NCBI GenBank assembly: GCA_000165345.1
Contig: CM000432.1
Span: forward strand, 32,001 to 96,000
Direction: 5' to 3'
Length of the DNA stretch: 64,000 nt
The notes beneath the pieces were generated by a model, which saw only the letters and a program-made list of their open reading frames with translations, was not told the origin of the DNA and did no database searches. Shown one piece after another: positions 1-25,699 of this stretch. Both the position numbers and the translations under genes were made by a program. Every line of letters begins with the position of its first letter. Within the stretch, counting starts at the first letter, position 1.

Positions 1-928
1 TAGTAATTGCAATATTAACAAAGGACAATTAGGTAACCCAATAATAAGTAATGCTAGTTCATTAAATAACAATAGAACGAATACTATTACTTATTCTTCG
101 ATAGTTGGATCCAATTTAAACAAAAATAATTTAGTGAAAGGGGTTAGCCAAAATTCTAATGTCCAAAATAACGAAAATTCAGTAATTTGTACAAATAATT
201 CAGTTGTGAATAAACCTAATATTCAAGATATTAATGCTTTTAAGTTAACAAAAATTATTGGTAAATTAGATGAATTAAATTCAGATACAGCCGAAATGAA
301 AAACTCTGGAAACTTACCACCAATTATTACATCAAATCAATCTCCAACTTCTACTTCATCATCTTCATCTTCAGTCTCATCTCCTTCAGCAATATCAACA
401 TCTTGTCAAAATTCTTCAAACATGTTAAAGAAATACACAGCAAGATATGAGATCCAAATACCACCAGATAACCAATTTCAAATTGCAAGAAGAATTATTG
501 GAACAAGAGGAATTAATATGAAAAGAATTTTCAAGTTAACTCAATCAAAACTTAGATTAAGAGGTAAAGGTTCTGGCTATTTAGAAGGTTATAACAAACA
601 AGAGGCAGATGAACCATTGCATTTGTGTATTTCCTCTACAAATTCTGAACAATACATTAATGCAAGAAAGCTAGTAGAGCGATTATTATTAAAGATTTAC
701 CAGGAGTATGATGACTTCTTATTATCAAATAATGATGATCATAAAACTCTTAATTTACAATTAAAATTCAAAGAAACAATGAGAACTAAGCAATTGCCAA
801 CAAACCAACCCAATGGAAATAACAGTAATAATAATCATAATAATAATATTAATAACAATAATACGATTTTATCTGGAGTTGAATCTAATACAAACGACGA
901 TGATTTGTTGAATGAATTTAATTTTTGA
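1..928 (+). CDS. STAR/GSG-family KH-domain RNA-binding protein, 5'-partial; the frame is open back to the first base of the window, and the track's M at 134 is a GTG codon
   Basis: The frame from position 2 to 928 has no stop. A KH/GSG core (IIGTRGINMKRI...LRLRGKGSGY...EPLHLCIS) resembles Quaking/Sam68/SF1-type KH domains. The C-terminus is an N-rich low-complexity tail. The stop is TGA at 926-928. Confidence 0.6.
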   Translation, partial: SNCNINKGQLGNPIISNASSLNNNRTNTITYSSIVGSNLNKNNLVKGVSQNSNVQNNENSVICTNNSVVNKPNIQDINAFKLTKIIGKLDELNSDTAEMKNSGNLPPIITSNQSPTSTSSSSSSVSSPSAISTSCQNSSNMLKKYTARYEIQIPPDNQFQIARRIIGTRGINMKRIFKLTQSKLRLRGKGSGYLEGYNKQEADEPLHLCISSTNSEQYINARKLVERLLLKIYQEYDDFLLSNNDDHKTLNLQLKFKETMRTKQLPTNQPNGNNSNNNHNNNINNNNTILSGVESNTNDDDLLNEFNF

Positions 929-1246: not shown

Positions 1247-4200
1247 TTAATTTTGGAATAAAAATTTAAGATCATCAGAATTAAGTTTATTTAGAGCATT
1301 ATTAGATGCTCCAACGGTACCGTCAAAAACAAGTTGTTTCTTTTCTTGTAGTTGAAACATTCTTTCTTCAATCGTATCCTTTGTAATAAACCTTAATGCA
1401 GTAACTTTTTTCTTCTGACCGATTCGATGAGCTCTTTGGAATGCTTGTAATTCAACTGCAGGATTCCACCAAGGATCAAGTAGAAAAACGTAATTAGCAA
1501 CCTGTAAGTTAAGACCTTCACCGCCAGCTTTGAGGCTGATTAAGATTATTTTAAGGTCCGGGAATTTATTAAATGAATACAATATGCTATTTCTTTGAAG
1601 AATTGACATTGAGCCAGCAAGCATTACGCATCCAATATTTGCCTTTTTTAAGCGATAGGAAACCAAGTCAAGCATATTTGTGAATTGAGAAAATACGATT
1701 CCCTTTGATTCAGGATCTTCTTGCATCATTTTATTAACTTCTTCTAATAGTGTATCAATTTTTGTAGAGCTTTCGAACCCTTGAGTTTTAATTTGTCGAG
1801 TAATAAATTTATTTCTAACACAAGAAAGAATGTCTTCATTTTCTTGCTTTGGTTCTTGTTTAAGATTTTCTTTGCTAACATCTATACCTAATTGTTTAGC
1901 CATTTCCATTCTTTCAAGCTCTCTTTCAATTTGCTCTTGCATTTGTTCAGACTCCATATTGTCATTTGTATCATTTTCTTCGTCATTCATTTCATCATAT
2001 CCGGATTTAATCTTTTTATTTTTCTTATTTAAATTCGAAACTTTATTAAAATCAATTGTAAGAGGTACATAGCAAACAGGGCATCCAAGAACTCCTCTCA
2101 TTGTTTGTTCACCTTCTGTATCAAAATCAGTAATTATTTCGTCTTCCTGGGGAGCTTGTTCAATGTATTCTTTGATACATTTAATATGGAATCCATGTTT
2201 GCATTTACTTGTAACTCTTTGATCAATTGTAACATTATCCATGCAAATATAACATAAGTCTTCATTACTGTCAGCTCTGCTTTTTGACGGTATAACTTTT
2301 TTTGAGTCAAAATTTGTTTTTTCTTCTTCTGCATCGTTTAAACATTCAACATCCTTTTCTTCATCATTATCTTCTTCTTTGTATTCTTTTTTATATTCTA
2401 GATCTTTTTTGTGGTTGAATTTTCCATAAACAATTAGATATGGATGATCTACAGCTTGTCTAAGACGACTAATCAAATCAAAGACGTGAGCATAATTGTG
2501 CAAAACTGTTCCTTGATTAACATAAGTATCAAACTGAACTTTAGATCTTTGATATAAAGAAGTATAGAAATCTTTTTCTGGGGCAGAAAGCTCATTATTT
2601 ATAACTTTAATTTCTAATGGTGGAAGCCTAACGTCTTCTTGTCGTTGAACTTTTGTTCTTCTTAGTAAAACTTTATCTAATACCTCCTTTTTAAGCCTTC
2701 TTAAGGCTTCAGAGCCTTCTCCAGAGAAACCATATCTTTTGATTGGATTAATAATTAATTTGTTAAAATATGAATAATGACATGATCTTGCATGACCACA
2801 AAACGAACAATATTTTAAATGTGTAACATAGTTTAATTGCCTACAATCGCAATCTACCTTATTGCAAAAGTTATAAGCATAGGGATGAAATCCAATAAAT
2901 CTAACAAGAGAGTAGAGTTCGCCAACCCTATTTTGAAGAGGGGTACCTGTAAGACACCATTTTGTTCCTCTAGACTTTAAAGCAAAAATTGCCTTTGCAG
3001 TAGAAGTTGTTCTTGCCTTAATTCTGTGCGCTTCATCCAAAATAATGCGATTCCAGCTTCTTCCAAAAATCGCTGAATATTCTCTTAACTTTTGGATAAT
3101 TTCATCCTCTTCATTATCATCTTCTTCATCATCAATTTCATCAATTTCTTCTACTACTTTATATTCATCGTCATCATCATCATCATTCTGCTTTTTTTTT
3201 TGGTTCTTAGCATTTTTTCTACGTTTTATATTCAAGTCTTGGGAGTCATCAGATTCGTCATATTCGGAATATTCATCAATTGATTCTTCTTCGGCATTAT
3301 AATCGTCCTCGAATTCATCTTCGTACTTCTTCTTTTTTCTACTATTCTTAGAATTATTACTCTTCGTATTTGCTTTTTTATTGCTATTATGAGTAGACTT
3401 TGAAGTTTTTTTAGTATTTTGATTCAAATGATTCCCTTCATTAGAATTATTGTCAGGGTTATCAAGTCCCAATATATTTGACAGTTTATCCACGAGTTCA
3501 GCCTTTCGAAGAGATTTACAGTTATCATATAATTCAACCAAGGAATCCAATATTTGTCCATCAATATTGAATCTAGTAGATAAATACTCCTTGCTATTTT
3601 CAATACTTGAAAGGAATTCCTTTATAGATTTTACTGTCTCTGATTTTAAAGGCAGTTTAATTCCTCCCCATTCCAATAAAGAAAGTAAATTTTCTTCAGG
3701 TTCATCCTTTACAATTTCAGTCTTTTGAATTTTTTCTTCAGTATCGTTTTCCTTTAACGAATTACTAGAGTCTTCCTTTTTAACTAATTGTTGACTTTTT
3801 CTTCTGGAAGTAAACCAAGGCAAGGCTGAAGACAATGATTCATCGTCAAGTAAGTCTGCTTTAGCAAGTATTTCTCTATAAACATTGCTAATTGTTGGTA
3901 AACTACGAGCAATATCTTCCAACTGTTTTGCCTTATCAACACCTTCCTCTAATCCAATCTTTAAAGTTCTCATAGCTTTTTTTAAACCTTCATTTTTTCT
4001 TTCAGTAAGTGCTTGTTTAGCTGTTCTCATGGAGTTTGGACCACAAAAGTATCTAAGGTGAATCTTCAAAGTCCTTTTTAAGAATGATCTATCACAGTAA
4101 GGACATTTAGATTTGAATGCTGATGCAATCTTTCTATATTCAGCTTCCAATGTAGGGTAGGTGGTAATTACTACGTCAGCATCATCAATGTCAACTCCAC

Positions 4201-5083
4201 CATAATCTTGTTTAGTACCTTTATTTCCTTGGTTCTTATTTCTTTTTGAACCATGGTAAATGTGTACTTTTAATGAACCAGGTTTTGTAAATCTTTCAAT
4301 TTCCTGTTTCCATTGTAGCACTGCTGCGACAGGAGCAATTACCAAATTTTTTCCAATAACTTCTCCTTTTTCTGCTTTATTTGTAACAGGTGGAATATCA
4401 TGTTCTAGAATTAATGATATTGTCTGAATGGTCTTTCCCATACCCATTTCATCAGCTAAAATACCTCCTCTTGCAGTTGATTTTTCCTGATTACAAAGCC
4501 ATGCTAAACCTTCTTTTTGAAATTGTAATAATTCATATGTAAGTTTTATGGGGGTAGGTTTTACTTCTACAATTGAACGGCTAATTAGGTCATCTGAGTT
4601 TTCAATGGTGAATTCATTAGGATTTGTTATGATTTCTTTTGTGCACAAATCAAGAAATTCGTCCCTTATTCCAATAGGTAAACAACTCCAACCATAGGTA
4701 ACTTCTGAAATTCTCCTCTCAATTTCATCTAAGTTAAATTCATGGCCTTGAATTGCTTTTTTAAGATACTTTTGCGAGCAAGGATTAATGTGGTTCCATC
4801 TATTTATTATCCCATACATTCCTCTTCTATCATATTCAGGCACACCTAGTCTATAAGTACCTTTTGTTATTGTTTTTCCACATACTGCACATCTAGATAT
4901 ATTACTCGGAGTCAAAACAGCAACAAATAATTTTTGTTCTATAATACTCTTCTGATCTTCATCCAATTCATCTATTTTTAAATTTGGTACCCATTCTTTA
5001 ACTTTTGGCTCCCAGTATGCATTATTTAAAAGTACAATAGGTTTTCTGCTACTAAGCATTTCTCCCAAGTCAGGATCTGCCAT
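1247..5083 (-). CDS. SNF2-family ATPase/helicase with a C3HC4 RING finger (RAD5/RAD16 class), an N-terminal PARP-type zinc finger, and an internal C2H2 finger
   Basis: ATG confirmed at 5083..5081. SNF2_N motif LADEMGMGKTIQTISLI. Helicase-C block GEGLNLQVANYVFLLDPWWNPAVELQAFQRAHRIGQKK. RING CYICMDN...CKHGFHIKC...GCPVC. Near the N-terminus, CAVCGKTITKGTYRLGV...WNHINPC fits the zf-PARP pattern (C-x2-C ... KG-x-R-G ... W-x-H-x2-C). C2H2 finger CPYCDRSFLKRTLKIHLRYF. An acidic K/D/E-rich low-complexity insert interrupts the ATPase region. Confidence 0.8.
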   Translation of the reverse strand: MADPDLGEMLSSRKPIVLLNNAYWEPKVKEWVPNLKIDELDEDQKSIIEQKLFVAVLTPSNISRCAVCGKTITKGTYRLGVPEYDRRGMYGIINRWNHINPCSQKYLKKAIQGHEFNLDEIERRISEVTYGWSCLPIGIRDEFLDLCTKEIITNPNEFTIENSDDLISRSIVEVKPTPIKLTYELLQFQKEGLAWLCNQEKSTARGGILADEMGMGKTIQTISLILEHDIPPVTNKAEKGEVIGKNLVIAPVAAVLQWKQEIERFTKPGSLKVHIYHGSKRNKNQGNKGTKQDYGGVDIDDADVVITTYPTLEAEYRKIASAFKSKCPYCDRSFLKRTLKIHLRYFCGPNSMRTAKQALTERKNEGLKKAMRTLKIGLEEGVDKAKQLEDIARSLPTISNVYREILAKADLLDDESLSSALPWFTSRRKSQQLVKKEDSSNSLKENDTEEKIQKTEIVKDEPEENLLSLLEWGGIKLPLKSETVKSIKEFLSSIENSKEYLSTRFNIDGQILDSLVELYDNCKSLRKAELVDKLSNILGLDNPDNNSNEGNHLNQNTKKTSKSTHNSNKKANTKSNNSKNSRKKKKYEDEFEDDYNAEEESIDEYSEYDESDDSQDLNIKRRKNAKNQKKKQNDDDDDDEYKVVEEIDEIDDEEDDNEEDEIIQKLREYSAIFGRSWNRIILDEAHRIKARTTSTAKAIFALKSRGTKWCLTGTPLQNRVGELYSLVRFIGFHPYAYNFCNKVDCDCRQLNYVTHLKYCSFCGHARSCHYSYFNKLIINPIKRYGFSGEGSEALRRLKKEVLDKVLLRRTKVQRQEDVRLPPLEIKVINNELSAPEKDFYTSLYQRSKVQFDTYVNQGTVLHNYAHVFDLISRLRQAVDHPYLIVYGKFNHKKDLEYKKEYKEEDNDEEKDVECLNDAEEEKTNFDSKKVIPSKSRADSNEDLCYICMDNVTIDQRVTSKCKHGFHIKCIKEYIEQAPQEDEIITDFDTEGEQTMRGVLGCPVCYVPLTIDFNKVSNLNKKNKKIKSGYDEMNDEENDTNDNMESEQMQEQIERELERMEMAKQLGIDVSKENLKQEPKQENEDILSCVRNKFITRQIKTQGFESSTKIDTLLEEVNKMMQEDPESKGIVFSQFTNMLDLVSYRLKKANIGCVMLAGSMSILQRNSILYSFNKFPDLKIILISLKAGGEGLNLQVANYVFLLDPWWNPAVELQAFQRAHRIGQKKKVTALRFITKDTIEERMFQLQEKKQLVFDGTVGASNNALNKLNSDDLKFLFQN

Positions 5084-5555: not shown

Positions 5556-6959
5556 TTAAAATATCATTCCTTGGTATGGAGTAAATGAGATAGAAGTGCT
5601 GCTTCCCAATTTAGAATCGCTTCCAGATAGTGTTTCAATCTTACTACTAGAACTAGAGCTTTTTAGGCTTCCAACTTGAAGACCTCTAATTCTTCTACCA
5701 CCTTCACCGGCGCTCAATAGTCCCAAACCAATGGTTTTCCCATCAACAGTGTATTCTTCCTCTTCCTCTCCGAATTTCATTCTATTCATCTCTTTTTTAA
5801 TTTTAGTTTGTTTGAATTTTTCTTTAATTTTTCGAATTCTTTTTCCACCTCTCCTAGATTTTGGAAAATCTTTTGGAATAGGAAGTGGCTTTTTCATAGG
5901 TTTTTGAGGAGGTTCCTGAGCTTTTTCTAAAATATTAAGTATATAGTTTCGATAGTTAACTCCATGATCTGGACTTTTATCTGTACTAGAGAAGTCAATT
6001 CTTGCACATAATCCACATTTTAAAGATACAAGTCTGATTGCCTTCTTCTTATATTTATCTTGAATGTTTCTTACAATATCGCTTTGAGAAATAATGCTTT
6101 GAAGTAATTCTAACCTTACTGGACCAGTAGAAAAGTGACCATTTTTTTTATTGTTTTTTAAGCTTCCAAGTACCATAATGTTTTGTGATGGCATTTCCGC
6201 TAAATTTTTAAGTCCTCCTGAGACACATAAAAGATTAGCAGCAATTTCGGGGCCAATTAATGCAGACAGATTTGGAGTAATAGCCTCTATTTGAAATTGT
6301 AGAAATTCTAGTATTTTTGATTTACTTTCGTTGATTTGATTAACAAAATCAATACATTTTAAAATTGATTCTTTCTTTTCTAAAGTTGGAATGTTTCTTT
6401 TGCTAGTACTTGAAGAAATGGTAATTGTCATAATTGTAGAGTTTGGTAAAATATCATTAAGCTTCACATCTTCAAAGTTTTCATGAGTAATTATCCTTTT
6501 CACAACTTCTAAATAGTCTATCTTGTTTATTATTATACTTGCAAGCTCACCAAAGTGATCCTTATATAAAGCTTTAACACATTCATATTTTTCTGAAACT
6601 TTTGAATCAATTATTCCTACTATATCTATAATTTCTTGAAATGTACCATAAATTTCATTACCAAAATCTTTTAATTGGTAATTTGAATTCATAACATTAG
6701 TTGATGAATCGATCATTTTTCCAAATAATCGGTCATTTAAATTACCGATTTTACTAATAATTTCATCATCACTATATTTCCCATCTTCGGAAATCTGGCC
6801 TTTATTGTTAATATTGCTAGATGCTGAATAATCAAGATCTTCCAAATCTTTCAACAGTAATTCCTGCAATGAAGACTGATATGATTGAAGATAGACGAGA
6901 AGAAAAATACATAAATTAATCAATAATGTGGGATTAAGAACATGAAATTAACTTACCAT
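5556..6959 (-). CDS. PRP31: U4/U6 snRNP protein Prp31 (Nop domain). Two exons on the minus strand: exon 1 is 6957..6959 (ATG only) and exon 2 is 5556..6875, with an 81-nt intron at 6876..6956
   Basis: The long ORF carries a Nop domain (LSALIGPEIAANLLCVSGGLKNLAEMPSQNIMVLG) and a basic Prp31-type C-terminus. The ORF's own N-terminus (MINLCIFLLVYLQSY) reads like translated non-coding sequence. On the minus strand, ATG is followed directly by GTAAGT at 6956..6951. A pyrimidine tract and AG at 6877..6876 open exon 2 in frame. The spliced N-terminus M-SSLQELLLKDLEDLD matches human PRPF31 MSLADELLADLEEA. Confidence 0.72.
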
Positions 6960-7094: not shown

Positions 7095-7976
7095 TTAATT
7101 AGTAAGCTTTCGCCTTTTGGAGCGGAGAATCATATGGGAATTCCATGCTCTAATTAGCTTTATAGATGCATTTGTATTCGTAGCTGTTGACTGAATAACT
7201 AAATCTTGATCTACATTTTCGTAATGAATTGTTGCATCATTCTGAAGACTATTAGAACTGCAGATTTCTTTCTCAGCTACCTGCTCTGTAATTAAATCAA
7301 TGAATGAGTTTTTTACATCCGTCTCTGGTTCTAGGCTGTTGTTATCATTGCTGATTTTCAAGGAAGTACTATTTTTCGAGTTAAGTGGGATATCACTTTT
7401 CTCAACAATTGAACTGTAAGATACAACCTCTCCCAAATCCTCAACTTCTTCATCAAAGTATTGCATCTGTAACGGTTCTGAAGTTTTATTTATGAAGTTC
7501 GAATTTATTTTATTATTTTTATGACTATTTATAGAAATGGAGCTGCTTTGATTAGAGTGGCTTGACTTAACTGGTATAGTAGGAATAATATGATCGATAG
7601 TAACCTTAATATTAATTATCACTGAAAATATTCTACTCAAAATGGAAAATAAAAGGAAAACCAAAGTCAAGAAAAAGCCGTGTGATAATAATCTAGAAAT
7701 AGATGTTCCAGCATCCTTAAGATCCCATTTAATTCTGCGAACTATTTTTCTGAGGTCTTTGAGATTTTTATAGTAATTTTCAGCATTTTCTGTGGATTTA
7801 TTATTATAAAATGTTTCTTGCAAAGCAATATAAAAAAGTTTGAGTTCTTTTGTAATCCTAAAGATACTCTTAAAATAACCTAGCCTACCATGTTGATTCT
7901 TAAATTTATATATAACTCTTTCAAGTAACTTTAGCTCTTGAGATAAGGCTTTACAGTAGTAGTTAATTTTTTCCAT
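7095..7976 (-). CDS. Hypothetical protein with one predicted transmembrane segment (LLSHGFFLTLVFLLFSILSRIFSVIINI)
   Basis: Clean 293-codon ORF with ATG at 7976..7974 and TAA stop. It lies in a divergent arrangement with the 8092 gene, sharing a 115-bp promoter that contains GGCGCC. No recognisable domain. Confidence 0.45.
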   Translation of the reverse strand: MEKINYYCKALSQELKLLERVIYKFKNQHGRLGYFKSIFRITKELKLFYIALQETFYNNKSTENAENYYKNLKDLRKIVRRIKWDLKDAGTSISRLLSHGFFLTLVFLLFSILSRIFSVIINIKVTIDHIIPTIPVKSSHSNQSSSISINSHKNNKINSNFINKTSEPLQMQYFDEEVEDLGEVVSYSSIVEKSDIPLNSKNSTSLKISNDNNSLEPETDVKNSFIDLITEQVAEKEICSSNSLQNDATIHYENVDQDLVIQSTATNTNASIKLIRAWNSHMILRSKRRKLTN

Positions 7977-20197: not shown

Positions 20198-23100
20198 ATG
20201 ACAATTTCTAGAAGCAGTTCATCATTAAATGAAGATGGAAAAATCAATCGAAGTAAGATTGTTCCATATATTACAAGAGAGATGAGTATTGCTCAGCTTC
20301 AAGATAAGAAATACCATAGTTTTGTGCAAAATACATTGGCAGATTATCAAGCAAGTGCATTTGATGCTCAGAAAATTGCATTGGAAAAAGATAAAGAGCT
20401 TAAAGAGTTGAGAGATACACAAAATTCAGTTAAGGTTTCGTTAAAGTATTATCAAGAGAAATGCCAGCAGTTAGAAAATGAGCTTAAAGCAACTTCAATG
20501 GGGCTATTATATGGGAGGAAGGAAAAAGAACAAGAGAGAGAAATTGCAAGATTGAGTACTGAAATAACAAGTTTTGAGAAAAAAAAAGAGGAGTTAGAAA
20601 CAAACTTGAGATATTATCAAGATAGAGAAATGTATTTACAGCACGAGTTGGAACTTAAAGAAAATGAATTAAATAAGCTATCTCAAGAATTTGCCACTTT
20701 AACAGAGACATATAATAGTACATATTCGGAATTAGAGAAATGTAAATTTGACTTAAGTACGGAACAGAATAATAATAAAACATTAGAAAATCAATTAAAA
20801 GTAAAGAATGACGAGATTACAAAATATAAAGGAAGTTTAACAACTAAAGAAGCGGAAATTAATAATTTGAAGAATGAAATACAAAAATTGAACTCAATGG
20901 TTGAAATCAATAAATCTGAAATAAATACTATTAGTGAGCAGCTTAAATTAAAACAGAAAGAGTGCTTAGATTATAGTAGTAAGATTCAACAAATAGAATT
21001 GGATATGAGAAAAAACTTGGATGAAAACGAAGTATTAATTAAGGATTTAAATTCACAGATAACTTTGACTAGAAATGACTTGACTCAAAAGGTTGAATTA
21101 ATTAATGAGTTAAACTCTCGAATTTCTACATTAGATTTAAAGCTACAAGAATCGTCAAGAGATATATTGGAAAAAGAAAAAACTATAGGAAAGCTTAAAG
21201 CTGAACAGCAGATTACTAGTTTAGAGGCTGATGGTCTTAAAACGAAGATTCAGATTATTGAACAAGAGAAAACCAATATTGAACAAGAAATTGAAACGAT
21301 ATTGGTAGAAAAGAAAAAAATAGATGAAGAACTTAAAGATACAATTAATAGGAAGAATTCCAAGTTAGATGAAGCTTTAACTTACAGAATTGAATCAGCT
21401 ATAACTGCTGAGAGAGAAATTAATCAACTTAAAGAAAAGAACCAAATAATTGAATTTGAGAAAAAAATGATGGAGGAAAAATTGGAAATTTCTAATAATA
21501 ATATAAAAATAAAAGATGATGAAATTCAACAACTTAAAACTACAATCCAAGATCTTAATCGACAAAATATTAAACTTGAGAATGAGCTTCATTCATTACA
21601 AGAAAGTAGCAGAAGAGAAAGTGTGGAGAATACATTTAGAAGTAGTAGAATTGGCTCAAATATTGTAAGTAGTAAAATCAATGCATCATCTGGGTCTACA
21701 GTTAATACCAGTGAAAATACAATTTCTAGTAATATAGCAACTAGTAATGCTGAAACTGTTGAAAAAGTAGTTAATGCTGATACTTTAGTTGACACATCTA
21801 TTCAAGATTCAGCTGTAAATGCTGCTTCTACAACAGTTAAAATGCCATCATCCAAATCAATTTCAAGTAAAAGTGCAATTTCCTCATTGCCAAAGCCAAA
21901 AGCTAAAAGTGCAGTTAAATCAGCTCCTGCTACTGAAGAGAATAACGGTGATCAAACAATATCTGAACCTGCATCTATATCTGAAGTTAAATCTAAAGCT
22001 GGAAGTAAATCAATGCCAGTTTCAAAATCCAAATCTGTAATTAAAGCTAAATCTCAGGTTGTTGCTAAATCCGATATGGATTCTGGACAAATTGTAAAGG
22101 AAGACAATGAGACCAAGGACAATGAGGATGAAGCGGCCAAGGTTAGAGCTCAGAAAGAAAAGGAGGAAGCAGAAGCAAAAGCTTTAAAAGAGAAGGAAGA
22201 AGCTGAGGCCAAAGCCAAGAAAGAAAAAGAAGAGGCTGAGGCTAAAGCTTTAAAGGAGAAAGAAGAAGCTGAGGCCAAAGCTAAGAAAGAAAAGGAGAAG
22301 GAAGAAGCTGAGGCCAAAGCTAAGAAAGAAAAAGAGGAAGCTGAGGCCAAGGCTAAGAAGGAAAAGGAAGAAGCTGAGGCCAAAGCTTTAAAAGAGAAAG
22401 AAGAAGCTGAGGCTAAAGCCAAGAAAGAAAAGGAGAAGGAAGAAGCTGAGGCCAAGGCAAAGAAAGAAAAAGAGGAGGCTGAGGCTAAAGCTAAAAAGGA
22501 GAAGGAGGAGGCTGAGGCAAAGGCCAAGAAGGAGAAGGAGGAAGCTGAAGCCAAAGCTAAGAAAGAGAAGGAGGAAGCTGAGGCCAAAGCTAAGAAAGAA
22601 AAAGAGGAAGCTGAGGCCAAGGCTAAGAAGGAGAAGGAGGAAGCTGAGGCCAAGGCTAAAAAGGAGAAGGAAGAGGCTGAGGCTAAAGCCAAGAAAGAAA
22701 AGGAGGAGGCTGAGGCTGAGGCTGAGGCAAAGGCAAAGAAAGAAAAGGAGGAGGCTGAGGCAAAGGCCAAGAAGGAGAAGGAAGAAGCTGAGGCCAAAGC
22801 TAAGAAAGAGAAGGAGGAAGCTGAGGCCAAAGCTAAGAAAGAAAAAGAGGAAGCTGAGGCCAAGGCTAAAAAGGAAAAAGAGGAGGCTGAGGCTAAAGCC
22901 AAGAAAGAAAAAGAAGAGGCTGAGGCTAAAGCTAAGAAGGAGAAGGAGGAAGCTGAGGCCAAGGCTAAAAAGGAGAAGGAAGAGGCTGATACAAAAGAGA
23001 AAGAGAAGACAGAAATCAAAGAAAATTCAAAAATAGATTCAGATAGTGAGGAAAACTCTGAATCTAAAGAAAAGAAGTCAACTGGACTACTTGCTAAGAC

Positions 23101-25699
23101 AATAGCAAAAGCTAAGGCAAAATCAAAGTCTAATTCTGTCTTATCAAAGCTTCCTTCTAAAGTTAATAAAGAAACAAGCAAAGCTGAGAATGATTTAGAA
23201 AATGAGATAGAAAAAGATGATGAATCAAATAAAAAAGAAACTAAAAAGGAGGAAGATTCAATAGCAAAGCTTAAAGCAAAAGTACCTGTTAAGCCAAGTC
23301 CTTTATTGAAATCAAAGAGTGAAAAAGAAAAGGAGAAAGAAGAAGATAAAGATGAGGAGAAGAAAGAAAAGGACAAAGAGAAAAAGGAAAAGTTAAAAGA
23401 AAAAGAAGAGGAAGGTAAGGAGAAAAGTAATGAAAAGGATAAAGGAGAAGATAAGGATGAAAAGGATAAATCAAAAAGTAAAATAAAAGACTCTCAGAAA
23501 GAGGAAAAATTAGAAGAAACGGAGAAAAATTCATTAAAGAAAGAGTCCAAAGATGATGAGAAGAAAGAAAAGGAGGATCCAATAGCGAAACTTAAGGCGA
23601 AAGTACCTGTTAAGCCAAGTCCTTTATTGAAATCAAAGAGTGAAAAAGAAAAGGAGAAAGAAGATAAAGATGAGGAGAAGAAAGAAAAGGAGGACAAAGA
23701 GAAAAAGGAAAAGTTAAAAGAAAAAGGAGAGGAAGGCAAGGAAAAGGAGGAAGGTAAAGAAAAGGAGAAAGAGAAAGAAAAGGATGAAAAGGATAAATCA
23801 AAAAGTAAAACAAAAGATTTTGAGAAAGAAAAATTAAAGGAAACTGAAAAGGGCGAAAAAGAAGCCGAAAAAGATTCATCAAAGAAAGAGTCCAAAGATG
23901 AGGAGAAGAAAGAAAAGGAGGATCCAATAGCAAAACTTAAGGCAAAGGTACCTGTTAAGCCAAGTCCTTTATTGAAATCAAAGAGTGAAAAAGAAAAGGA
24001 GAAAGAAGAAGATAAAGATGAGGAGAAGAAAGAAAAGGAGGACAAAGAGAAAAAAGAAAAGTTAAAAGAAAAAGAAGAGGAAGGTAAAGAAAAAGAGAAA
24101 GAAAAGGTCAAAGCTCAAAAGAAAAAAGATGAAAAGGAAGAAAAAGATAAGGACGAAAAAGAAGATGATAAAGAAAAGAGTAAAGAAAGTGAAAATCTTG
24201 AAAAAAAACCAACTATTTCAGAAAAAGTTATAAACCCTGAAGGTAAAATTGATGAGAAGGACTCAGAAAAAGAAACTTTAAATCATAGTAAAACTAAGGA
24301 AATTGCTAAAACAAAGGCTGCAGCTCAACTTAAGGCAGCTATATTAGCAAGAGCATCATCTAAAAAGAATATATCAGCTGATAATAGTGAAGATTCAAAG
24401 TTAAAGAAATCTGAATCTAAGAAAGATATTATCAAAGATGAAGCCAAAGATGAAAGTAAGACAAATAAAGATGGAAAGGATCTCAAAAAAACTTTGAAAG
24501 AAGGTGAGGGTTCAATTTCAAAGGTTAAAGGAAAAGGTAAGGTAAAGACTAAGGCAAAGGCAAAAGAAGCCCCACCTCCAGCTGAAGAATCAAGTTGGTT
24601 CAGTGGTTGGTTTGGAACTTCAGCACCGGAAGAACCTCCCAAAGAAGAGGAGAAAAAAGAAGAGAAAAAAGAGGATGAAACGCCGCCACCACCACCACCA
24701 GCTGAGGAGTCAAGTTGGTTCAGTGGTTGGTTTGGAACCTCAGCACCTGAAGAACCACCTAAGGAGGATCCAGCGAAAAAACCTCCTAAAAAGCATTTAG
24801 TTAAGAAATCATCTTCTGTGAAGAAAGATGATGGCGAAAAGAAAGAAGAAAAGGAGGAAAAGAAGGAGGTGAAGAAAGACGAAAAAGAGGAGAAGAAAGA
24901 TGAAAAAGAGGATAAGAAAGACGAAAAGAAGGAAGGAATAGAGGAGACAAAAGAGAAGAAAGAGGAGAAGAAGGAAGGTGACGAAAAGAAGGATGAAACA
25001 GATAATAAGGAGGTAAAGGAAATTGCTGAAAAGGAAAAAACAGGGGTAGACCCAGAGAAAAAAGCTGTCAAAGCAAAGACAAAATCTAAAGCAAAGGCTA
25101 AAGCTAAGGAAGAGCCACCTCCTGCACCACCAGCAGAAGAATCAAGTTGGTTCAGTGGTTGGTTTGGAGCTTCAGCACCGGAAGAACCTCCTAAAGAAGA
25201 GGAGAAAAAAGAAGAGAAAAAAGAGGATGCACCACCAGCTGAAGAGTCGAGCTGGTTCGGCGGTTGGTTTGGAGCCTCCACACCTGAAGAGCCACCTAAG
25301 GAAGATCCAGCAAAAAGACCTACTCCAAAAGTACATCCGGCAAAAAAATCATCCTCCGTGAAGAAGGATAATGATGAAAAGAAAGAAGAAAAGGAGGAAA
25401 AGAAGGAGGAGAAAAAAGAGGAAAAGAAGGAGGAGAAGAAAGAGGAAAAGGAGGAAAAGAAAGAGGACGATGAAAAAGAAAAAAAAGTAGTAAAAGCTAA
25501 AACAAAAACAAAAGCAAAAGCAAAAGCCAAGGCTAAGGAAGAGCCACCTCCTGCACCACCAGCAGAAGAGTCAAGCTGGTTCAGTGGCTGGTTTGGAGCT
25601 GCTGCACCCGCAGAGCCCGAGCCAGAACCAAATAAAGAAGAGCCAAAGGAGGAACAAAAAACTGAGGAACCTGCTGCAACATCCTGGTGGGGATGGTAA
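20198..25699 (+). CDS. Modular tandem-repeat protein (1833 aa): a coiled-coil N-terminus, then ~30 copies of KEKEEAEAKAKK, three copies of a ~110-aa K/E-rich module, five EESSWFSGWFG aromatic islands, and a terminal SWWGW
   Basis: Uninterrupted 5.5-kb ORF from ATG 20198. The first ~480 aa have heptad-like K/E/L/Q coiled-coil composition. The repeat arrays keep the reading frame and show variation mainly at synonymous positions. An E2F-like box lies downstream at 25831. Confidence 0.7.
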   Translation: MTISRSSSSLNEDGKINRSKIVPYITREMSIAQLQDKKYHSFVQNTLADYQASAFDAQKIALEKDKELKELRDTQNSVKVSLKYYQEKCQQLENELKATSMGLLYGRKEKEQEREIARLSTEITSFEKKKEELETNLRYYQDREMYLQHELELKENELNKLSQEFATLTETYNSTYSELEKCKFDLSTEQNNNKTLENQLKVKNDEITKYKGSLTTKEAEINNLKNEIQKLNSMVEINKSEINTISEQLKLKQKECLDYSSKIQQIELDMRKNLDENEVLIKDLNSQITLTRNDLTQKVELINELNSRISTLDLKLQESSRDILEKEKTIGKLKAEQQITSLEADGLKTKIQIIEQEKTNIEQEIETILVEKKKIDEELKDTINRKNSKLDEALTYRIESAITAEREINQLKEKNQIIEFEKKMMEEKLEISNNNIKIKDDEIQQLKTTIQDLNRQNIKLENELHSLQESSRRESVENTFRSSRIGSNIVSSKINASSGSTVNTSENTISSNIATSNAETVEKVVNADTLVDTSIQDSAVNAASTTVKMPSSKSISSKSAISSLPKPKAKSAVKSAPATEENNGDQTISEPASISEVKSKAGSKSMPVSKSKSVIKAKSQVVAKSDMDSGQIVKEDNETKDNEDEAAKVRAQKEKEEAEAKALKEKEEAEAKAKKEKEEAEAKALKEKEEAEAKAKKEKEKEEAEAKAKKEKEEAEAKAKKEKEEAEAKALKEKEEAEAKAKKEKEKEEAEAKAKKEKEEAEAKAKKEKEEAEAKAKKEKEEAEAKAKKEKEEAEAKAKKEKEEAEAKAKKEKEEAEAKAKKEKEEAEAKAKKEKEEAEAEAEAKAKKEKEEAEAKAKKEKEEAEAKAKKEKEEAEAKAKKEKEEAEAKAKKEKEEAEAKAKKEKEEAEAKAKKEKEEAEAKAKKEKEEADTKEKEKTEIKENSKIDSDSEENSESKEKKSTGLLAKTIAKAKAKSKSNSVLSKLPSKVNKETSKAENDLENEIEKDDESNKKETKKEEDSIAKLKAKVPVKPSPLLKSKSEKEKEKEEDKDEEKKEKDKEKKEKLKEKEEEGKEKSNEKDKGEDKDEKDKSKSKIKDSQKEEKLEETEKNSLKKESKDDEKKEKEDPIAKLKAKVPVKPSPLLKSKSEKEKEKEDKDEEKKEKEDKEKKEKLKEKGEEGKEKEEGKEKEKEKEKDEKDKSKSKTKDFEKEKLKETEKGEKEAEKDSSKKESKDEEKKEKEDPIAKLKAKVPVKPSPLLKSKSEKEKEKEEDKDEEKKEKEDKEKKEKLKEKEEEGKEKEKEKVKAQKKKDEKEEKDKDEKEDDKEKSKESENLEKKPTISEKVINPEGKIDEKDSEKETLNHSKTKEIAKTKAAAQLKAAILARASSKKNISADNSEDSKLKKSESKKDIIKDEAKDESKTNKDGKDLKKTLKEGEGSISKVKGKGKVKTKAKAKEAPPPAEESSWFSGWFGTSAPEEPPKEEEKKEEKKEDETPPPPPPAEESSWFSGWFGTSAPEEPPKEDPAKKPPKKHLVKKSSSVKKDDGEKKEEKEEKKEVKKDEKEEKKDEKEDKKDEKKEGIEETKEKKEEKKEGDEKKDETDNKEVKEIAEKEKTGVDPEKKAVKAKTKSKAKAKAKEEPPPAPPAEESSWFSGWFGASAPEEPPKEEEKKEEKKEDAPPAEESSWFGGWFGASTPEEPPKEDPAKRPTPKVHPAKKSSSVKKDNDEKKEEKEEKKEEKKEEKKEEKKEEKEEKKEDDEKEKKVVKAKTKTKAKAKAKAKEEPPPAPPAEESSWFSGWFGAAAPAEPEPEPNKEEPKEEQKTEEPAATSWWGW
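22150..22990 (+). repeat. Coding tandem array with a 36-nt period, about 30 copies of KEKEEAEAKAKK
   Basis: Units of the form gaa gaa gct gag gcc aaa gct aag aaa gaa aag gag recur with gag/gaa, gct/gcc/gca and aag/aaa wobble changes. Occasional KEKEKEE (+6 nt) and EAEAEAEA variants occur. Confidence 0.85.
23257..24110 (+). repeat. Three tandem ~330-nt coding repeats (DPIAKLKAKVPVKPSPLLKSKSEKEKEKEEDKDEEKKEK...GKEK)
   Basis: The copies start near 23257, 23577 and 23917. The DNA is nearly identical between copies, with small indels. Confidence 0.8.
24580..25699 (+). repeat. Five interspersed PPPAEESSWFSGWFG(T/A)SAPEEPPKE islands in two alternating flavours, plus a terminal TSWWGW
   Basis: The gaatcaagttggttcagtggttggtttgga-type segments lie at about 24586, 24706, 25140, 25243 and 25569. 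They form a higher-order A/B repeat. Confidence 0.8.

What the first reader, a model, noticed from the sequence alone, without database searches (positions are those of the whole stretch)
1247..5083. SNF2-RING DNA-repair helicase that also carries a PARP-type (nick-sensing) zinc finger and a C2H2 finger
RAD5/RAD16/HLTF-class SNF2-RING proteins normally pair the ATPase with HIRAN or RING modules only. Here residues ~60-100 (CAVCGKTITKGTYRLGVPEYDRRGMYGIINRWNHINPC) fit the zf-PARP consensus that recognises DNA strand breaks in PARP1 and DNA ligase III. This suggests direct nick recognition by a translocase. A C2H2 finger and a long acidic D/E/K insert interrupt the ATPase lobes.
Basis: partly seen in the sequence, partly recalled or inferred. 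Interest (0 to 1): 0.5.

Follow-up and report, generated by a model that had tools for sequence, protein, structure and literature searches.

The report
Rad16 repair motor with PARP-type finger
This is the already annotated Cryptosporidium parvum Rad16 DNA-repair motor (cgd4_140); its N-terminal PARP-like zinc finger is real, but it is the normal build of this protein family in many protists and green algae, not a new fusion.

Summary
The ORF at 1247-5083 (-) is real and encodes 1278 aa. It is identical to C. parvum Iowa II EAK87701.1, "Swi2/Snf2 ATPase, Rad16 ortholog" (cgd4_140).

The N-terminal finger is a genuine but divergent PARP-type zinc finger.
- Against it: Pfam zf-PARP scores 23.6-27.9 bits, below the gathering score of 39.3.
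- For it: orthologues pass that score at the same position.
- For it: C65, C68, H98 and C102 are invariant in 37 family members.
- For it: the family profile hits PARP1 Zn1/Zn2 (E 3e-35) and DNA ligase III (E 9e-14).
- For it: an AlphaFold model (pLDDT 86) retrieves only PARP1 and Lig3 fingers.

Cryptosporidium oddities are an H-x3-C spacing and Ile in place of the R18/R122 DNA-grip arginine.

The claim of novelty fails. The same zf-PARP + SNF2 + RING build occurs in other apicomplexans, chromerids, dinoflagellates, perkinsids, oomycetes, green algae and kinetoplastids. Public annotation already records it.

The "C2H2" finger is a C2HC finger found in every RAD16 homologue examined outside the fungal fragments, including Arabidopsis. 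The "acidic insert" lies inside ATPase lobe 1 and is composite: C2HC finger, conserved helices, a probable degenerate SAP domain, and low-complexity runs.

Nick sensing is plausible but untested. Interest is low.

The parts
1247..5083 (-). Whole gene: C. parvum RAD16/rhp16 orthologue (cgd4_140), 1278 aa plus stop codon
   Evidence: ORF. It is identical to EAK87701.1 'Swi2/Snf2 ATPase, Rad16 ortholog'. The cgd4_140 = RAD16 assignment is in PMC2408969.
4928..5026 (-). N-terminal extension (residues ~20-52): beta-hairpin plus two short helices with conserved W24-x-P26...W31, directly preceding the finger
   Evidence: AF2 pLDDT 96-97. W/P conservation is seen in family alignment A1. Function unknown.
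4634..4927 (-). PARP-type zinc finger domain (residues ~53-150). Zinc ligands are C65, C68, H98 and C102 (core 4778-4891). R78, Y90 and W96 are retained. I62 stands at the R18/R122 position.
   Evidence: Pfam PF00645 gives 23.6/27.9 bits, below the gathering score. The ligands are invariant. The family profile matches PARP1 and Lig3 fingers at E 3e-35 and 9e-14. Foldseek's top 28 hits are all PARP1/Lig3 fingers.
4544..4633 (-). Flexible linker (residues ~151-180) between the finger and the ATPase
   Evidence: pLDDT ~58. Conservation within the genus is low.
4109..4543 (-). SNF2 ATPase lobe 1, first part (residues 181-325): Q-motif LLQFQ and motif I DEMGMGKT at 211
   Evidence: Pfam SNF2-rel_dom stretch 188-321. 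Motif positions.
4043..4105 (-).
   Evidence: Present in all but one of the listed homologues, including Arabidopsis RAD16. Predicted beta-beta-alpha fold, pLDDT 86-94. Pfam zf-C2HC_2 and zf-C2H2 are far below threshold. Absent from the four fungal RAD16 fragments in which the interval could be read.
3809..4042 (-). Conserved helical segment of the insert (residues 348-425) with motifs KAMRTLKI and PTISNVYREIL
   Evidence: 72-98% identical across Cryptosporidium species. The motifs are shared with Micromonas, Chloropicon, Vitrella, Symbiodinium and Plasmodium.
3470..3565 (-). Probable degenerate SAP motif (residues ~507-538, IDGQILDSLVELYDNCKSLRKAELVDKLSNIL), within a conserved helical block at ~462-545
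   Evidence: MAFFT aligns it with bona fide SAP domains of other alveolate orthologues. hhalign gives probability 51%, P 1.5e-4. There is no Pfam SAP hit and no significant fold hit.
3098..3448 (-). Acidic/basic low-complexity run (residues ~546-662), the 'D/E/K insert'
   Evidence: 17-32% identity among the more distant Cryptosporidium species. Alignment.
2369..3097 (-). SNF2 lobe 1, second part (residues 663-905): motif II LDEAH at 682 and motif III TGTP at 712
   Evidence: Second SNF2-rel_dom stretch. Motifs. Aligns to Rad5 452-518 with no equivalent insert in Rad5.
2777..2866 (-). Cys/His cluster after motif III (residues 740-769, CNKVDCDC...CSFCGHARSCH), a probable further zinc site
   Evidence: The pattern is found in 86 of 96 homologues. 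It is also in the yeast-type Rad16 segment used as the query.
2078..2254 (-). RING-H2 finger embedded in the ATPase (residues 944-1002: C-x2-C-x13-C-x-H-x2-H-x2-C-x29-C-x2-C)
   Evidence: Pfam RING models at 943-1004, with zf-C3HC4 at 22.5 bits against a cut-off of 21. Sequence read.
1250..1798 (-). SNF2 lobe 2 / Helicase_C (residues 1096-1278) with motif VI QRAHRIGQ at 1216
   Evidence: Helicase_C 79.7 bits at 1109-1222. Aligns to Rad5 775-951. Motif position.

Best explanation
The gene is the Cryptosporidium parvum orthologue of RAD16/rhp16 (cgd4_140). RAD16 is the SNF2-family DNA translocase with an embedded RING E3 ligase that drives global-genome nucleotide excision repair in yeast.

Shown here:
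- Its N-terminus carries one genuine PARP-type (CCHC) zinc finger, tethered by a flexible linker of about 30 residues to ATPase lobe 1.
- This build is the standard one for RAD16 orthologues in alveolates, oomycetes, chlorophyte algae and kinetoplastids, so it is old and inherited.
- The finger is kept under purifying selection within the genus.

Inferred:
- The finger acts as a sequence-independent binder of DNA structure: strand breaks, nicks, gaps or other discontinuities.
- It would work together with the lobe-1 insert (C2HC finger and a degenerate SAP motif) to dock or anchor the motor on DNA.
- ATP-driven translocation could then generate torsion, and the RING could ubiquitylate local targets.

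The Cryptosporidium copy is a derived version. It has an H-x3-C spacing and Ile at the R18/R122 grip position, so its affinity or specificity may differ from the PARP1 fingers.

My confidence by step: identity and architecture about 0.97; DNA-structure-binding role about 0.55; nick-specific sensing about 0.3.
For: Identity:
- Exact match to EAK87701.1, 'Rad16 ortholog'.
- All named top homologues are rhp16/RAD16.
- The best solved relative is Rad5, E 3.5e-55.
- Motifs I, II, III and VI are intact.

Finger:
- Pfam E 9e-5 and 4e-6.
- Orthologues exceed the gathering score at the same position.
- CCHC ligands are invariant.
- The family profile hits PARP1 Zn1/Zn2 at E 3e-35 and Lig3 at E 9e-14, across the whole domain.
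- The AF2 model has pLDDT 86, and Foldseek's top 28 hits are all PARP1/Lig3 fingers.

DNA-contact features retained:
- R78 corresponds to R34/R138.
- Y90 sits in the base-stacking loop.
- W96 is kept (residue roles from PMC8150716).

Selection: the finger is 56% identical between C. parvum and C. andersoni, against 17-22% in the low-complexity parts and 51% in the RING.

Breadth of the architecture.

Yeast Rad16 is a DNA translocase and RING E3 acting with Rad7 (PMC3116912).
Against: - No experiment on any zf-PARP RAD16 was found. The literature searches returned only domain listings.
- The Pfam score is below the gathering threshold for this protein.
- Ile62 replaces the arginine (R18 in Zn1, R122 in Zn2) that the review PMC8150716 calls key to DNA binding. 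The family consensus is Arg in 22 of 37 sequences.
- The H-x3-C spacing is non-canonical.
- PARP1 needs two fingers to read a nick co-operatively; this protein has one.
- The AF2 model leans on an alignment of homologues with canonical fingers.
Confidence: 0.6

Rival explanations
1. The finger has the PARP-type fold but no longer senses breaks in Cryptosporidium. It would serve as a generic DNA or nucleosome anchor, or as an intramolecular or protein-protein contact that regulates the ATPase or E3. PARP1 Zn1 also makes interdomain contacts.
For: - Ile62 stands at the R18/R122 grip position, and H-x3-C spacing is found in all Cryptosporidium species.
- The Pfam score is the lowest of the family members tested.
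- There is only a single finger.
- A conserved N-terminal extension packs next to the finger in the model.
- PMC8150716 notes that Zn1 D45 works in interdomain communication rather than DNA binding.
Against: - R78, Y90, W96 and a basic residue at position 64 are retained, and 64 is K/R in 30 of 37 family members.
- The 'S-x-I-S-R-C' variant recurs in an unrelated group of homologues (for example P0037 and P0044). That argues for a tolerated alternative rather than decay.
- The finger is conserved as well as the RING within the genus.
Confidence: 0.3
2. The match is a chance Cys/His pattern in an AT-rich, low-complexity protist protein, and there is no PARP-type finger.
For: The Pfam score is below the gathering threshold (23.6 vs 39.3 bits). 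The H-to-C spacing is off by one.
Against: - Invariant ligands across 37 diverse homologues.
- Family profile E 3e-35 to PARP1 fingers.
- Fold search returns only PARP1/Lig3 fingers.
- Orthologues pass the threshold.
- Purifying selection within the genus.
Confidence: 0.02
3. The zf-PARP/SNF2-RING fusion is a lineage-specific innovation of alveolates or apicomplexans.
For: The closest homologues are alveolate. Arabidopsis and Capsella RAD16 lack the finger.
Against: The same N-terminal finger is found in Micromonas and Chloropicon (green algae), in Saprolegnia, Aphanomyces and Phytophthora (oomycetes), and in Trypanosoma, Phytomonas and Perkinsela (kinetoplastids).
Confidence: 0.03

Closest known systems
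[quoted passage not shown]
   Same: Same order of modules: N-terminal PARP-type finger, SNF2 lobe 1 with a C2HC finger and a variable insert, Cys/His cluster, embedded RING, Helicase_C. The zinc ligands align column for column.
   Different: - Cryptosporidium has H-x3-C instead of H-x2-C, and Ile instead of Arg three residues before the first Cys.
- Its SAP domain is degenerate.
- The UBA seen by Pfam in Vitrella, and by eye as UBA-like stretches in two unnamed homologues and Plasmodium, is not evident.
Saccharomyces cerevisiae Rad16 (Rad7-Rad16 GG-NER complex)
   Same: SNF2 translocase with a RING E3 embedded in the ATPase (PMC3116912). The Cys/His cluster after motif III is also present in the yeast-type segment.
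   Different: - Fungal RAD16 fragments have only a 47-residue interval where the C2HC finger and insert sit.
- From memory, not tested here, yeast Rad16 has no PARP-type finger. The last search returned only fragments, so fungal N-termini could not be checked.
- Partners (Rad7, Abf1, Elc1/Cul3) are unknown for Cryptosporidium.
PARP1 zinc fingers Zn1/Zn2 and the DNA ligase III-alpha zinc finger (Pfam PF00645)
   Same: - CCHC ligands, with a C2-to-H spacer of 29 (PARP1 has 28 and 30).
- Predicted fold with target TM 0.7-0.82.
- The Arg equivalent to R34/R138, a hydrophobic or aromatic residue in the base-stacking loop, and the Trp before the His are all present.
   Different: - H-x3-C spacing.
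- Ile at the R18/R122 position.
- A single copy.
- An extra N-terminal hairpin.
- Fused to a translocase/E3 rather than to a PARP catalytic domain or a ligase.
Rad5 / HLTF (SNF2-RING with an N-terminal HIRAN domain)
   Same: Same SNF2 subfamily grouping and an embedded RING. The best solved relative is Rad5 (6L8N, E 3.5e-55). The logic is analogous: an N-terminal module that reads a DNA end or discontinuity sits ahead of the motor.
   Different: There is no HIRAN hit. Rad5 has no insert at the lobe-1 site. The N-terminal module has a different fold.

Membership tests
zf-PARP (Pfam PF00645) | Pfam HMM score at or above the gathering threshold (39.3 bits) | tested here: not met
   The whole protein scores 23.6 bits and the N-terminal 187 aa score 27.9 bits. 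Orthologues at the same position do pass: Micromonas 50.2 and Symbiodinium 43.3 bits.
zf-PARP (Pfam PF00645) | Four zinc ligands Cys-Cys-His-Cys, with 28-30 residues between the second Cys and the His | tested here: met
   C65, C68, H98 and C102, with a spacer of 29. All four are invariant in 37 family sequences.
zf-PARP (Pfam PF00645) | H-x2-C spacing of the last two ligands | tested here: not met
   H-I-N-P-C gives H-x3-C. It is a one-residue insertion found in all the Cryptosporidium sequences and absent from 33 of 37 sequences in the family alignment.
zf-PARP (Pfam PF00645) | Sequence homology to experimentally solved PARP-type fingers | tested here: met
   The family profile hits PARP1 Zn1+Zn2 at E 3.3e-35 (per-domain 5e-17 and 8e-15) and Lig3 ZnF at E 9.1e-14. 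The single sequence alone gives only E 0.016.
zf-PARP (Pfam PF00645) | PARP-finger fold | tested here: met
   The AF2 model has pLDDT 86.4. The 28 best Foldseek PDB hits are all PARP1 Zn1/Zn2 or Lig3 ZnF, with probability 1.00 and target TM up to 0.82. This is a prediction, and zinc is not modelled.
zf-PARP (Pfam PF00645) | DNA-contact residues: grip Arg (R18/R122), second Arg (R34/R138), hydrophobic base-stacking loop | tested here: inconclusive
   I62 stands at the R18/R122 position, although R64 is adjacent. R78 is present (Arg in 33 of 37 family sequences). Y90 sits in the loop. Residue roles are from PMC8150716.
zf-PARP (Pfam PF00645) | Binds DNA nicks or breaks | not testable with these tools
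   Needs biochemistry. No published assay on any RAD16-type finger was found.
RAD16/rhp16 subfamily of SNF2 ATPases | Intact SNF2 ATPase motifs and a Helicase_C lobe | tested here: met
   SNF2-rel_dom 191.5 bits and Helicase_C 79.7 bits. Motifs I (211), II (682), III (712) and VI (1216) are present.
RAD16/rhp16 subfamily of SNF2 ATPases | RING finger embedded between the ATPase lobes | tested here: met
   A RING-H2 pattern at 944-1002. zf-C3HC4 scores 22.5 bits against a cut-off of 21, and other RING models lie just below their cut-offs.
RAD16/rhp16 subfamily of SNF2 ATPases | Orthology to named RAD16/rhp16 proteins | tested here: met
   Identical to 'Rad16 ortholog' EAK87701.1. The top named hits are rhp16/RAD16 from Plasmodium, Symbiodinium, oomycetes and Arabidopsis. 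It is listed as RAD16 in PMC2408969. No formal phylogeny was made.
RAD16/rhp16 subfamily of SNF2 ATPases | Family-specific Cys/His cluster after motif III | tested here: met
   The pattern at 740-769 is found in 86 of 96 homologues.
RAD16/rhp16 subfamily of SNF2 ATPases | Works with Rad7 in global-genome NER | not testable with these tools
   The partner and the phenotype cannot be read from this window.
Classical C2H2 zinc finger (PF00096) | C-x2-4-C-x12-H-x3-5-H ligands and an HMM score above threshold | tested here: not met
   The ligands are C,C,H,C (C-x2-C-x11-H-x4-C). zf-C2H2 scores 15.1 bits against 25.2, and zf-C2HC_2 scores 17.0 against 27. The predicted fold is beta-beta-alpha, as in C2H2 fingers.
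SAP domain (PF02037) | Helix-extended-helix motif recognised by the SAP profile | tested here: inconclusive
   There is no Pfam hit. A profile built from the SAP domains of other alveolate orthologues gives only fragments. MAFFT aligns residues 507-538 with those SAP domains. hhalign gives probability 51%, P 1.5e-4. Two helices are predicted with pLDDT ~87.
Rad5/HLTF (HIRAN-SNF2-RING) | N-terminal HIRAN domain | tested here: not met
   No HIRAN hit at E up to 10. The N-terminus is a PARP-type finger instead.

The most novel reading that the evidence does not exclude
The PARP-type finger may be the ancestral N-terminal module of RAD16, inherited by SAR lineages, green algae and kinetoplastids. 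In that reading it lets the global-genome NER translocase/E3 dock directly on strand discontinuities, such as NER incision intermediates or nearby breaks. This step would be invisible in yeast, the only organism where Rad16 has been studied, because fungi lost the finger and rely on other anchors such as Abf1.
Probability: 0.25. Interest if true: 0.55.

Novelty: already known. Interest (0 to 1): 0.25.

Why it matters
The result is mainly an annotation refinement. The C. parvum, C. hominis and related Rad16 entries lack the PF00645 label because their finger scores below the Pfam threshold, yet the finger is there.

The wider point is modest but real. Outside fungi and land plants, the Rad16 repair motor normally carries a break-sensor-type finger, a C2HC finger and often SAP or UBA modules. 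The searches made here found no study that has asked what these modules do.

If the finger reads nicks or gaps, it would connect lesion incision to the torsion and ubiquitin steps of global-genome repair. It would also show that the yeast model is a reduced version of the ancestral machine.

Tried and rejected
- **Single-sequence search of the N-terminus against PDB sequences.** It gave only E 0.016 to PARP1. That was not decisive, so I replaced it with a family profile.
- **Protein search with alignment A1, to census zf-PARP + SNF2 proteins by taxon.** It returned nothing, for reasons I do not understand.
- **AFDB50 fold library.** It was not available, so no organism-labelled structural census was possible.
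- **Last protein search, with a yeast-type Rad16 segment recalled from memory.**
  - It was meant to show whether fungal RAD16 N-termini carry the finger.
  - It returned only fragments shorter than 430 aa.
  - It did confirm the recalled segment (100% identity to one fragment).
  - Four fungal-type RAD16 fragments, two of them named (Coelomomyces, Coemansia), lack the C2HC insert.
  - The N-terminal question for fungi remains open.
- **Pfam scan of the insert for SAP.** No hit.
- **Foldseek with the insert model.** Nothing significant; the best hit had E 0.73.
- **Literature searches.** Searches for 'Rad16 + PARP-type zinc finger', 'PARP finger + SWI2' and 'Rad16 PARP zinc finger Plasmodium SNF2' found nothing.
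- **tRNA scan of the window.** None found.
- **Readings rejected.** A chance Cys/His pattern, an alveolate-specific fusion, and a classical C2H2 finger.

Full report
**What is there**

The minus-strand ORF 1247..5083 is real and encodes 1278 aa. Its translation is identical to GenBank EAK87701.1, [quoted passage not shown]. The window (about 22-40% G+C in 2-kb windows, mostly 24-30%) is therefore C. parvum DNA. The gene is cgd4_140, listed as the RAD16 homologue in a 2008 survey of apicomplexan ubiquitin enzymes (PMC2408969). It has even been used as a qPCR target (XM_625623; PMC4214936).

Pfam finds the following:
- SNF2-rel_dom at 191.5 bits, split into two stretches.
- Helicase_C at 79.7 bits.
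- A group of RING models at 943-1004.
- zf-PARP (PF00645) at residues 59-113, with E 9e-5 and 23.6 bits.

ATPase motifs I (DEMGMGKT, 211), II (LDEAH, 682), III (TGTP, 712) and VI (QRAHRIGQ, 1216) are intact. The closest solved relative is yeast Rad5 (6L8N, E 3.5e-55).

**Is the PARP-type finger real?**

The score is 23.6 bits for the whole protein and 27.9 bits for the N-terminal 187 aa (E 4e-6), against a gathering threshold of 39.3. Four independent lines nevertheless show it is a true but divergent member.

1. The orthologous N-terminal fingers of Micromonas (50.2 bits) and Symbiodinium (43.3 bits) pass the threshold at the same position relative to the ATPase.
2. In an alignment of 37 diverse N-termini, the only invariant columns in the finger are C65, C68, H98 and C102.
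3. The profile of that alignment hits PARP1 Zn1 and Zn2 (whole-sequence E 3.3e-35; per domain 5e-17 and 8e-15). It also hits the DNA ligase III finger (E 9.1e-14). The match covers the whole domain, including the C-terminal G[FW]xxL helix region.
4. An AlphaFold2 model of residues 1-190 (mean pLDDT 86.4) retrieves only PARP1 Zn1/Zn2 and Lig3 ZnF chains as its 28 significant PDB matches. Probability is 1.00 and target-normalised TM reaches 0.82.

Caveats: the model leans on the homologue alignment, zinc is not modelled, and I could not inspect coordinates.

**How the Cryptosporidium finger differs**

- The ligand spacing is C-x2-C-x29-H-x3-C. PARP1 has spacers of 28 and 30 and then H-x2-C. The extra residue (P101) is found in all the Cryptosporidium sequences and is absent from 33 of 37 sequences in the family alignment.
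- A structural review (PMC8150716) names R18 (Zn1) and R122 (Zn2) as the "phosphate backbone grip". It names F44, or a Leu/Ile pair, as the "base stacking loop".
- Mapping through the alignments, the R18/R122 position is Ile62 in C. parvum. The family has Arg there in 22 of 37 sequences, and an adjacent R64 is present.
- The R34/R138 position is R78 (Arg in 33 of 37). The loop carries Y90, and the Trp before the His (W96) is kept.
- The "S-x-I-S-R-C" variant also occurs in an unrelated set of homologues (for example P0037 and P0044). It may therefore be a tolerated alternative rather than decay.
- Within the genus the finger is 56% identical between C. parvum and C. andersoni. That is comparable with the RING (51%) and far above the low-complexity segments (17-22%), so it is under purifying selection.

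**Is the fusion unusual?**

No.
- Of the 120 best homologues, 89 carry PF00645 in their precomputed Pfam lists.
- A direct pattern search finds the CCHC finger N-terminal of motif I in 113 of the 127 fetched sequences. This includes Plasmodium falciparum-type proteins that Pfam misses.
- Named organisms are:
  - Apicomplexans: Cryptosporidium species, a gregarine, Eimeria, Plasmodium and Babesia.
  - Other alveolates: Vitrella, Chromera, Perkinsus, Symbiodinium and Amoebophrya.
  - Oomycetes: Saprolegnia, Aphanomyces and Phytophthora.
  - Green algae: Micromonas and Chloropicon.
  - Kinetoplastids: Trypanosoma, Phytomonas and Perkinsela.
- A 2025 survey of Toxoplasma SNF2 ATPases lists zf-PARP and RING among the domains drawn (PMC12215852). 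A T. cruzi RING-E3 survey lists zf-PARP with SNF2_N (PMC5976635).
- Arabidopsis and Capsella RAD16 lack the finger.
- I could not test fungal N-termini, because the last database search returned only fragments. From memory, yeast Rad16 has none.

The distribution across SAR, Chlorophyta and Euglenozoa points to an old, inherited module that some lineages lost. I found no paper that studies its function.

**The other features in the finding**

The "C2H2 finger" at 327-347 is C-x2-C-x11-H-x4-C, a C2HC finger.
- It is present in all but one of the listed homologues, including Arabidopsis RAD16.
- AlphaFold predicts a beta-beta-alpha fold for it with pLDDT 86-94.
- Pfam C2H2 and C2HC models are far below threshold.
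- Four fungal-type RAD16 fragments have only 47 residues between the TTY block and DEAH, with no finger. Rad5 has no insert there either.

The "long acidic insert" is the variable region that follows this finger inside ATPase lobe 1.
- The distance from motif I to motif II ranges from 193 residues in plants to 1092 in Chromera, and is 469 here.
- It is composite:
  - a strongly conserved helical stretch with KAMRTLKI and PTISNVYREIL motifs, shared with green algae and other alveolates;
  - a variable linker;
  - a conserved helical block at about 462-545;
  - the acidic/basic runs.
- Most alveolate orthologues have a clear SAP domain in this insert, and Vitrella also has a Pfam UBA hit. UBA-like stretches in two unnamed homologues and in Plasmodium were seen only by eye.
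- In Cryptosporidium, residues 507-538 align with those SAP domains, and hhalign gives 51% probability with P 1.5e-4.
- Pfam and Foldseek give nothing there. A degenerate SAP is therefore probable, not shown.

The RING itself is RING-H2 type with a 29-residue loop before the last ligand pair.

**How it most likely works**

Established for yeast: Rad16 is a DNA translocase whose ATPase generates torsion, and a RING E3. It acts with Rad7 in global-genome NER, and both activities are needed for efficient repair (PMC3116912).

Shown here: the C. parvum protein has all the catalytic motifs of that enzyme, plus a PARP-type finger on a flexible tether (linker pLDDT about 58).

Inferred: the finger, and probably the C2HC and SAP-like modules, bind DNA without sequence preference. 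They would give the motor a fixed hold on DNA or target it to discontinuities. Rad5 and HLTF use an N-terminal HIRAN domain in an analogous way.

Whether the target is a nick, a gap, an end or simply duplex DNA is not known. One finger rather than two, together with the Ile62 substitution, argues for caution.

**Verdict**

The interpretation as an unusual or lineage-specific fusion is not supported. This is the ordinary, already annotated Rad16 orthologue with the architecture typical of the family outside fungi and land plants. It is of low interest as a discovery and of modest interest as an unstudied, testable feature of protist NER.

Noticed in passing
window 20198-25699 (+), repeats at 22147-22989 and 23250-24195: An 1833-aa ORF with several distinct parts. 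It has an N-terminal coiled coil and about 25 tandem copies of a 33-bp unit (EAEAKAKKEKE). It also has 321/345-bp repeats, and 'EESSWFSGWFG' motifs recur near the C-terminus. The ORF explains the G+C and purine-skew spike at 22-26 kb.
   Followed up: partly
window 2777-2866 (-), protein residues 740-769: A Cys/His cluster (CNKVDCDC...CSFCGHARSCH) sits just after ATPase motif III. It is conserved in 86 of 96 RAD16 homologues and is also present in yeast-type Rad16. It is a probable extra zinc site that Pfam does not annotate.
   Followed up: partly
window 4928-5026 (-), protein residues ~20-52: A small hairpin-plus-helices extension (W24-x-P26...W31) lies directly ahead of the PARP-type finger. 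It is predicted at pLDDT 96-97 and is conserved in the family. PARP1 and Lig3 fingers have no counterpart.
   Followed up: no
window 3470-3565 (-), protein residues 507-538; homologues P0011, P0013, P0017, P0030: The lobe-1 insert of alveolate RAD16 orthologues often holds a SAP domain. Vitrella also has a Pfam UBA hit, and UBA-like stretches are visible by eye in P0013, P0017 and Plasmodium. Cryptosporidium keeps only a degenerate SAP-like motif (hhalign 51%).
   Followed up: partly
fungal RAD16 fragments P0132, P0134, P0139, P0143: Fungal-type RAD16 fragments (two are named: Coelomomyces and Coemansia) have a 47-residue TTY-to-DEAH interval with no C2HC finger. Plants and protists carry the finger, so among the RAD16 sequences seen here the C2HC finger is found only outside fungi.
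   Followed up: partly
window 134-928 (+), 5556-6923 (-), 7095-7976 (-): The neighbouring ORFs are intron-free and closely packed, as expected for Cryptosporidium. I did not analyse them. No tRNA genes were found in the whole window.
   Followed up: no
tools: the search for homologous proteins with the N-terminal alignment A1 scored no hit, although its own members are in the database. With a 242-aa query it returned only fragments shorter than 430 aa. The AFDB50 fold library was unavailable.
   Followed up: no
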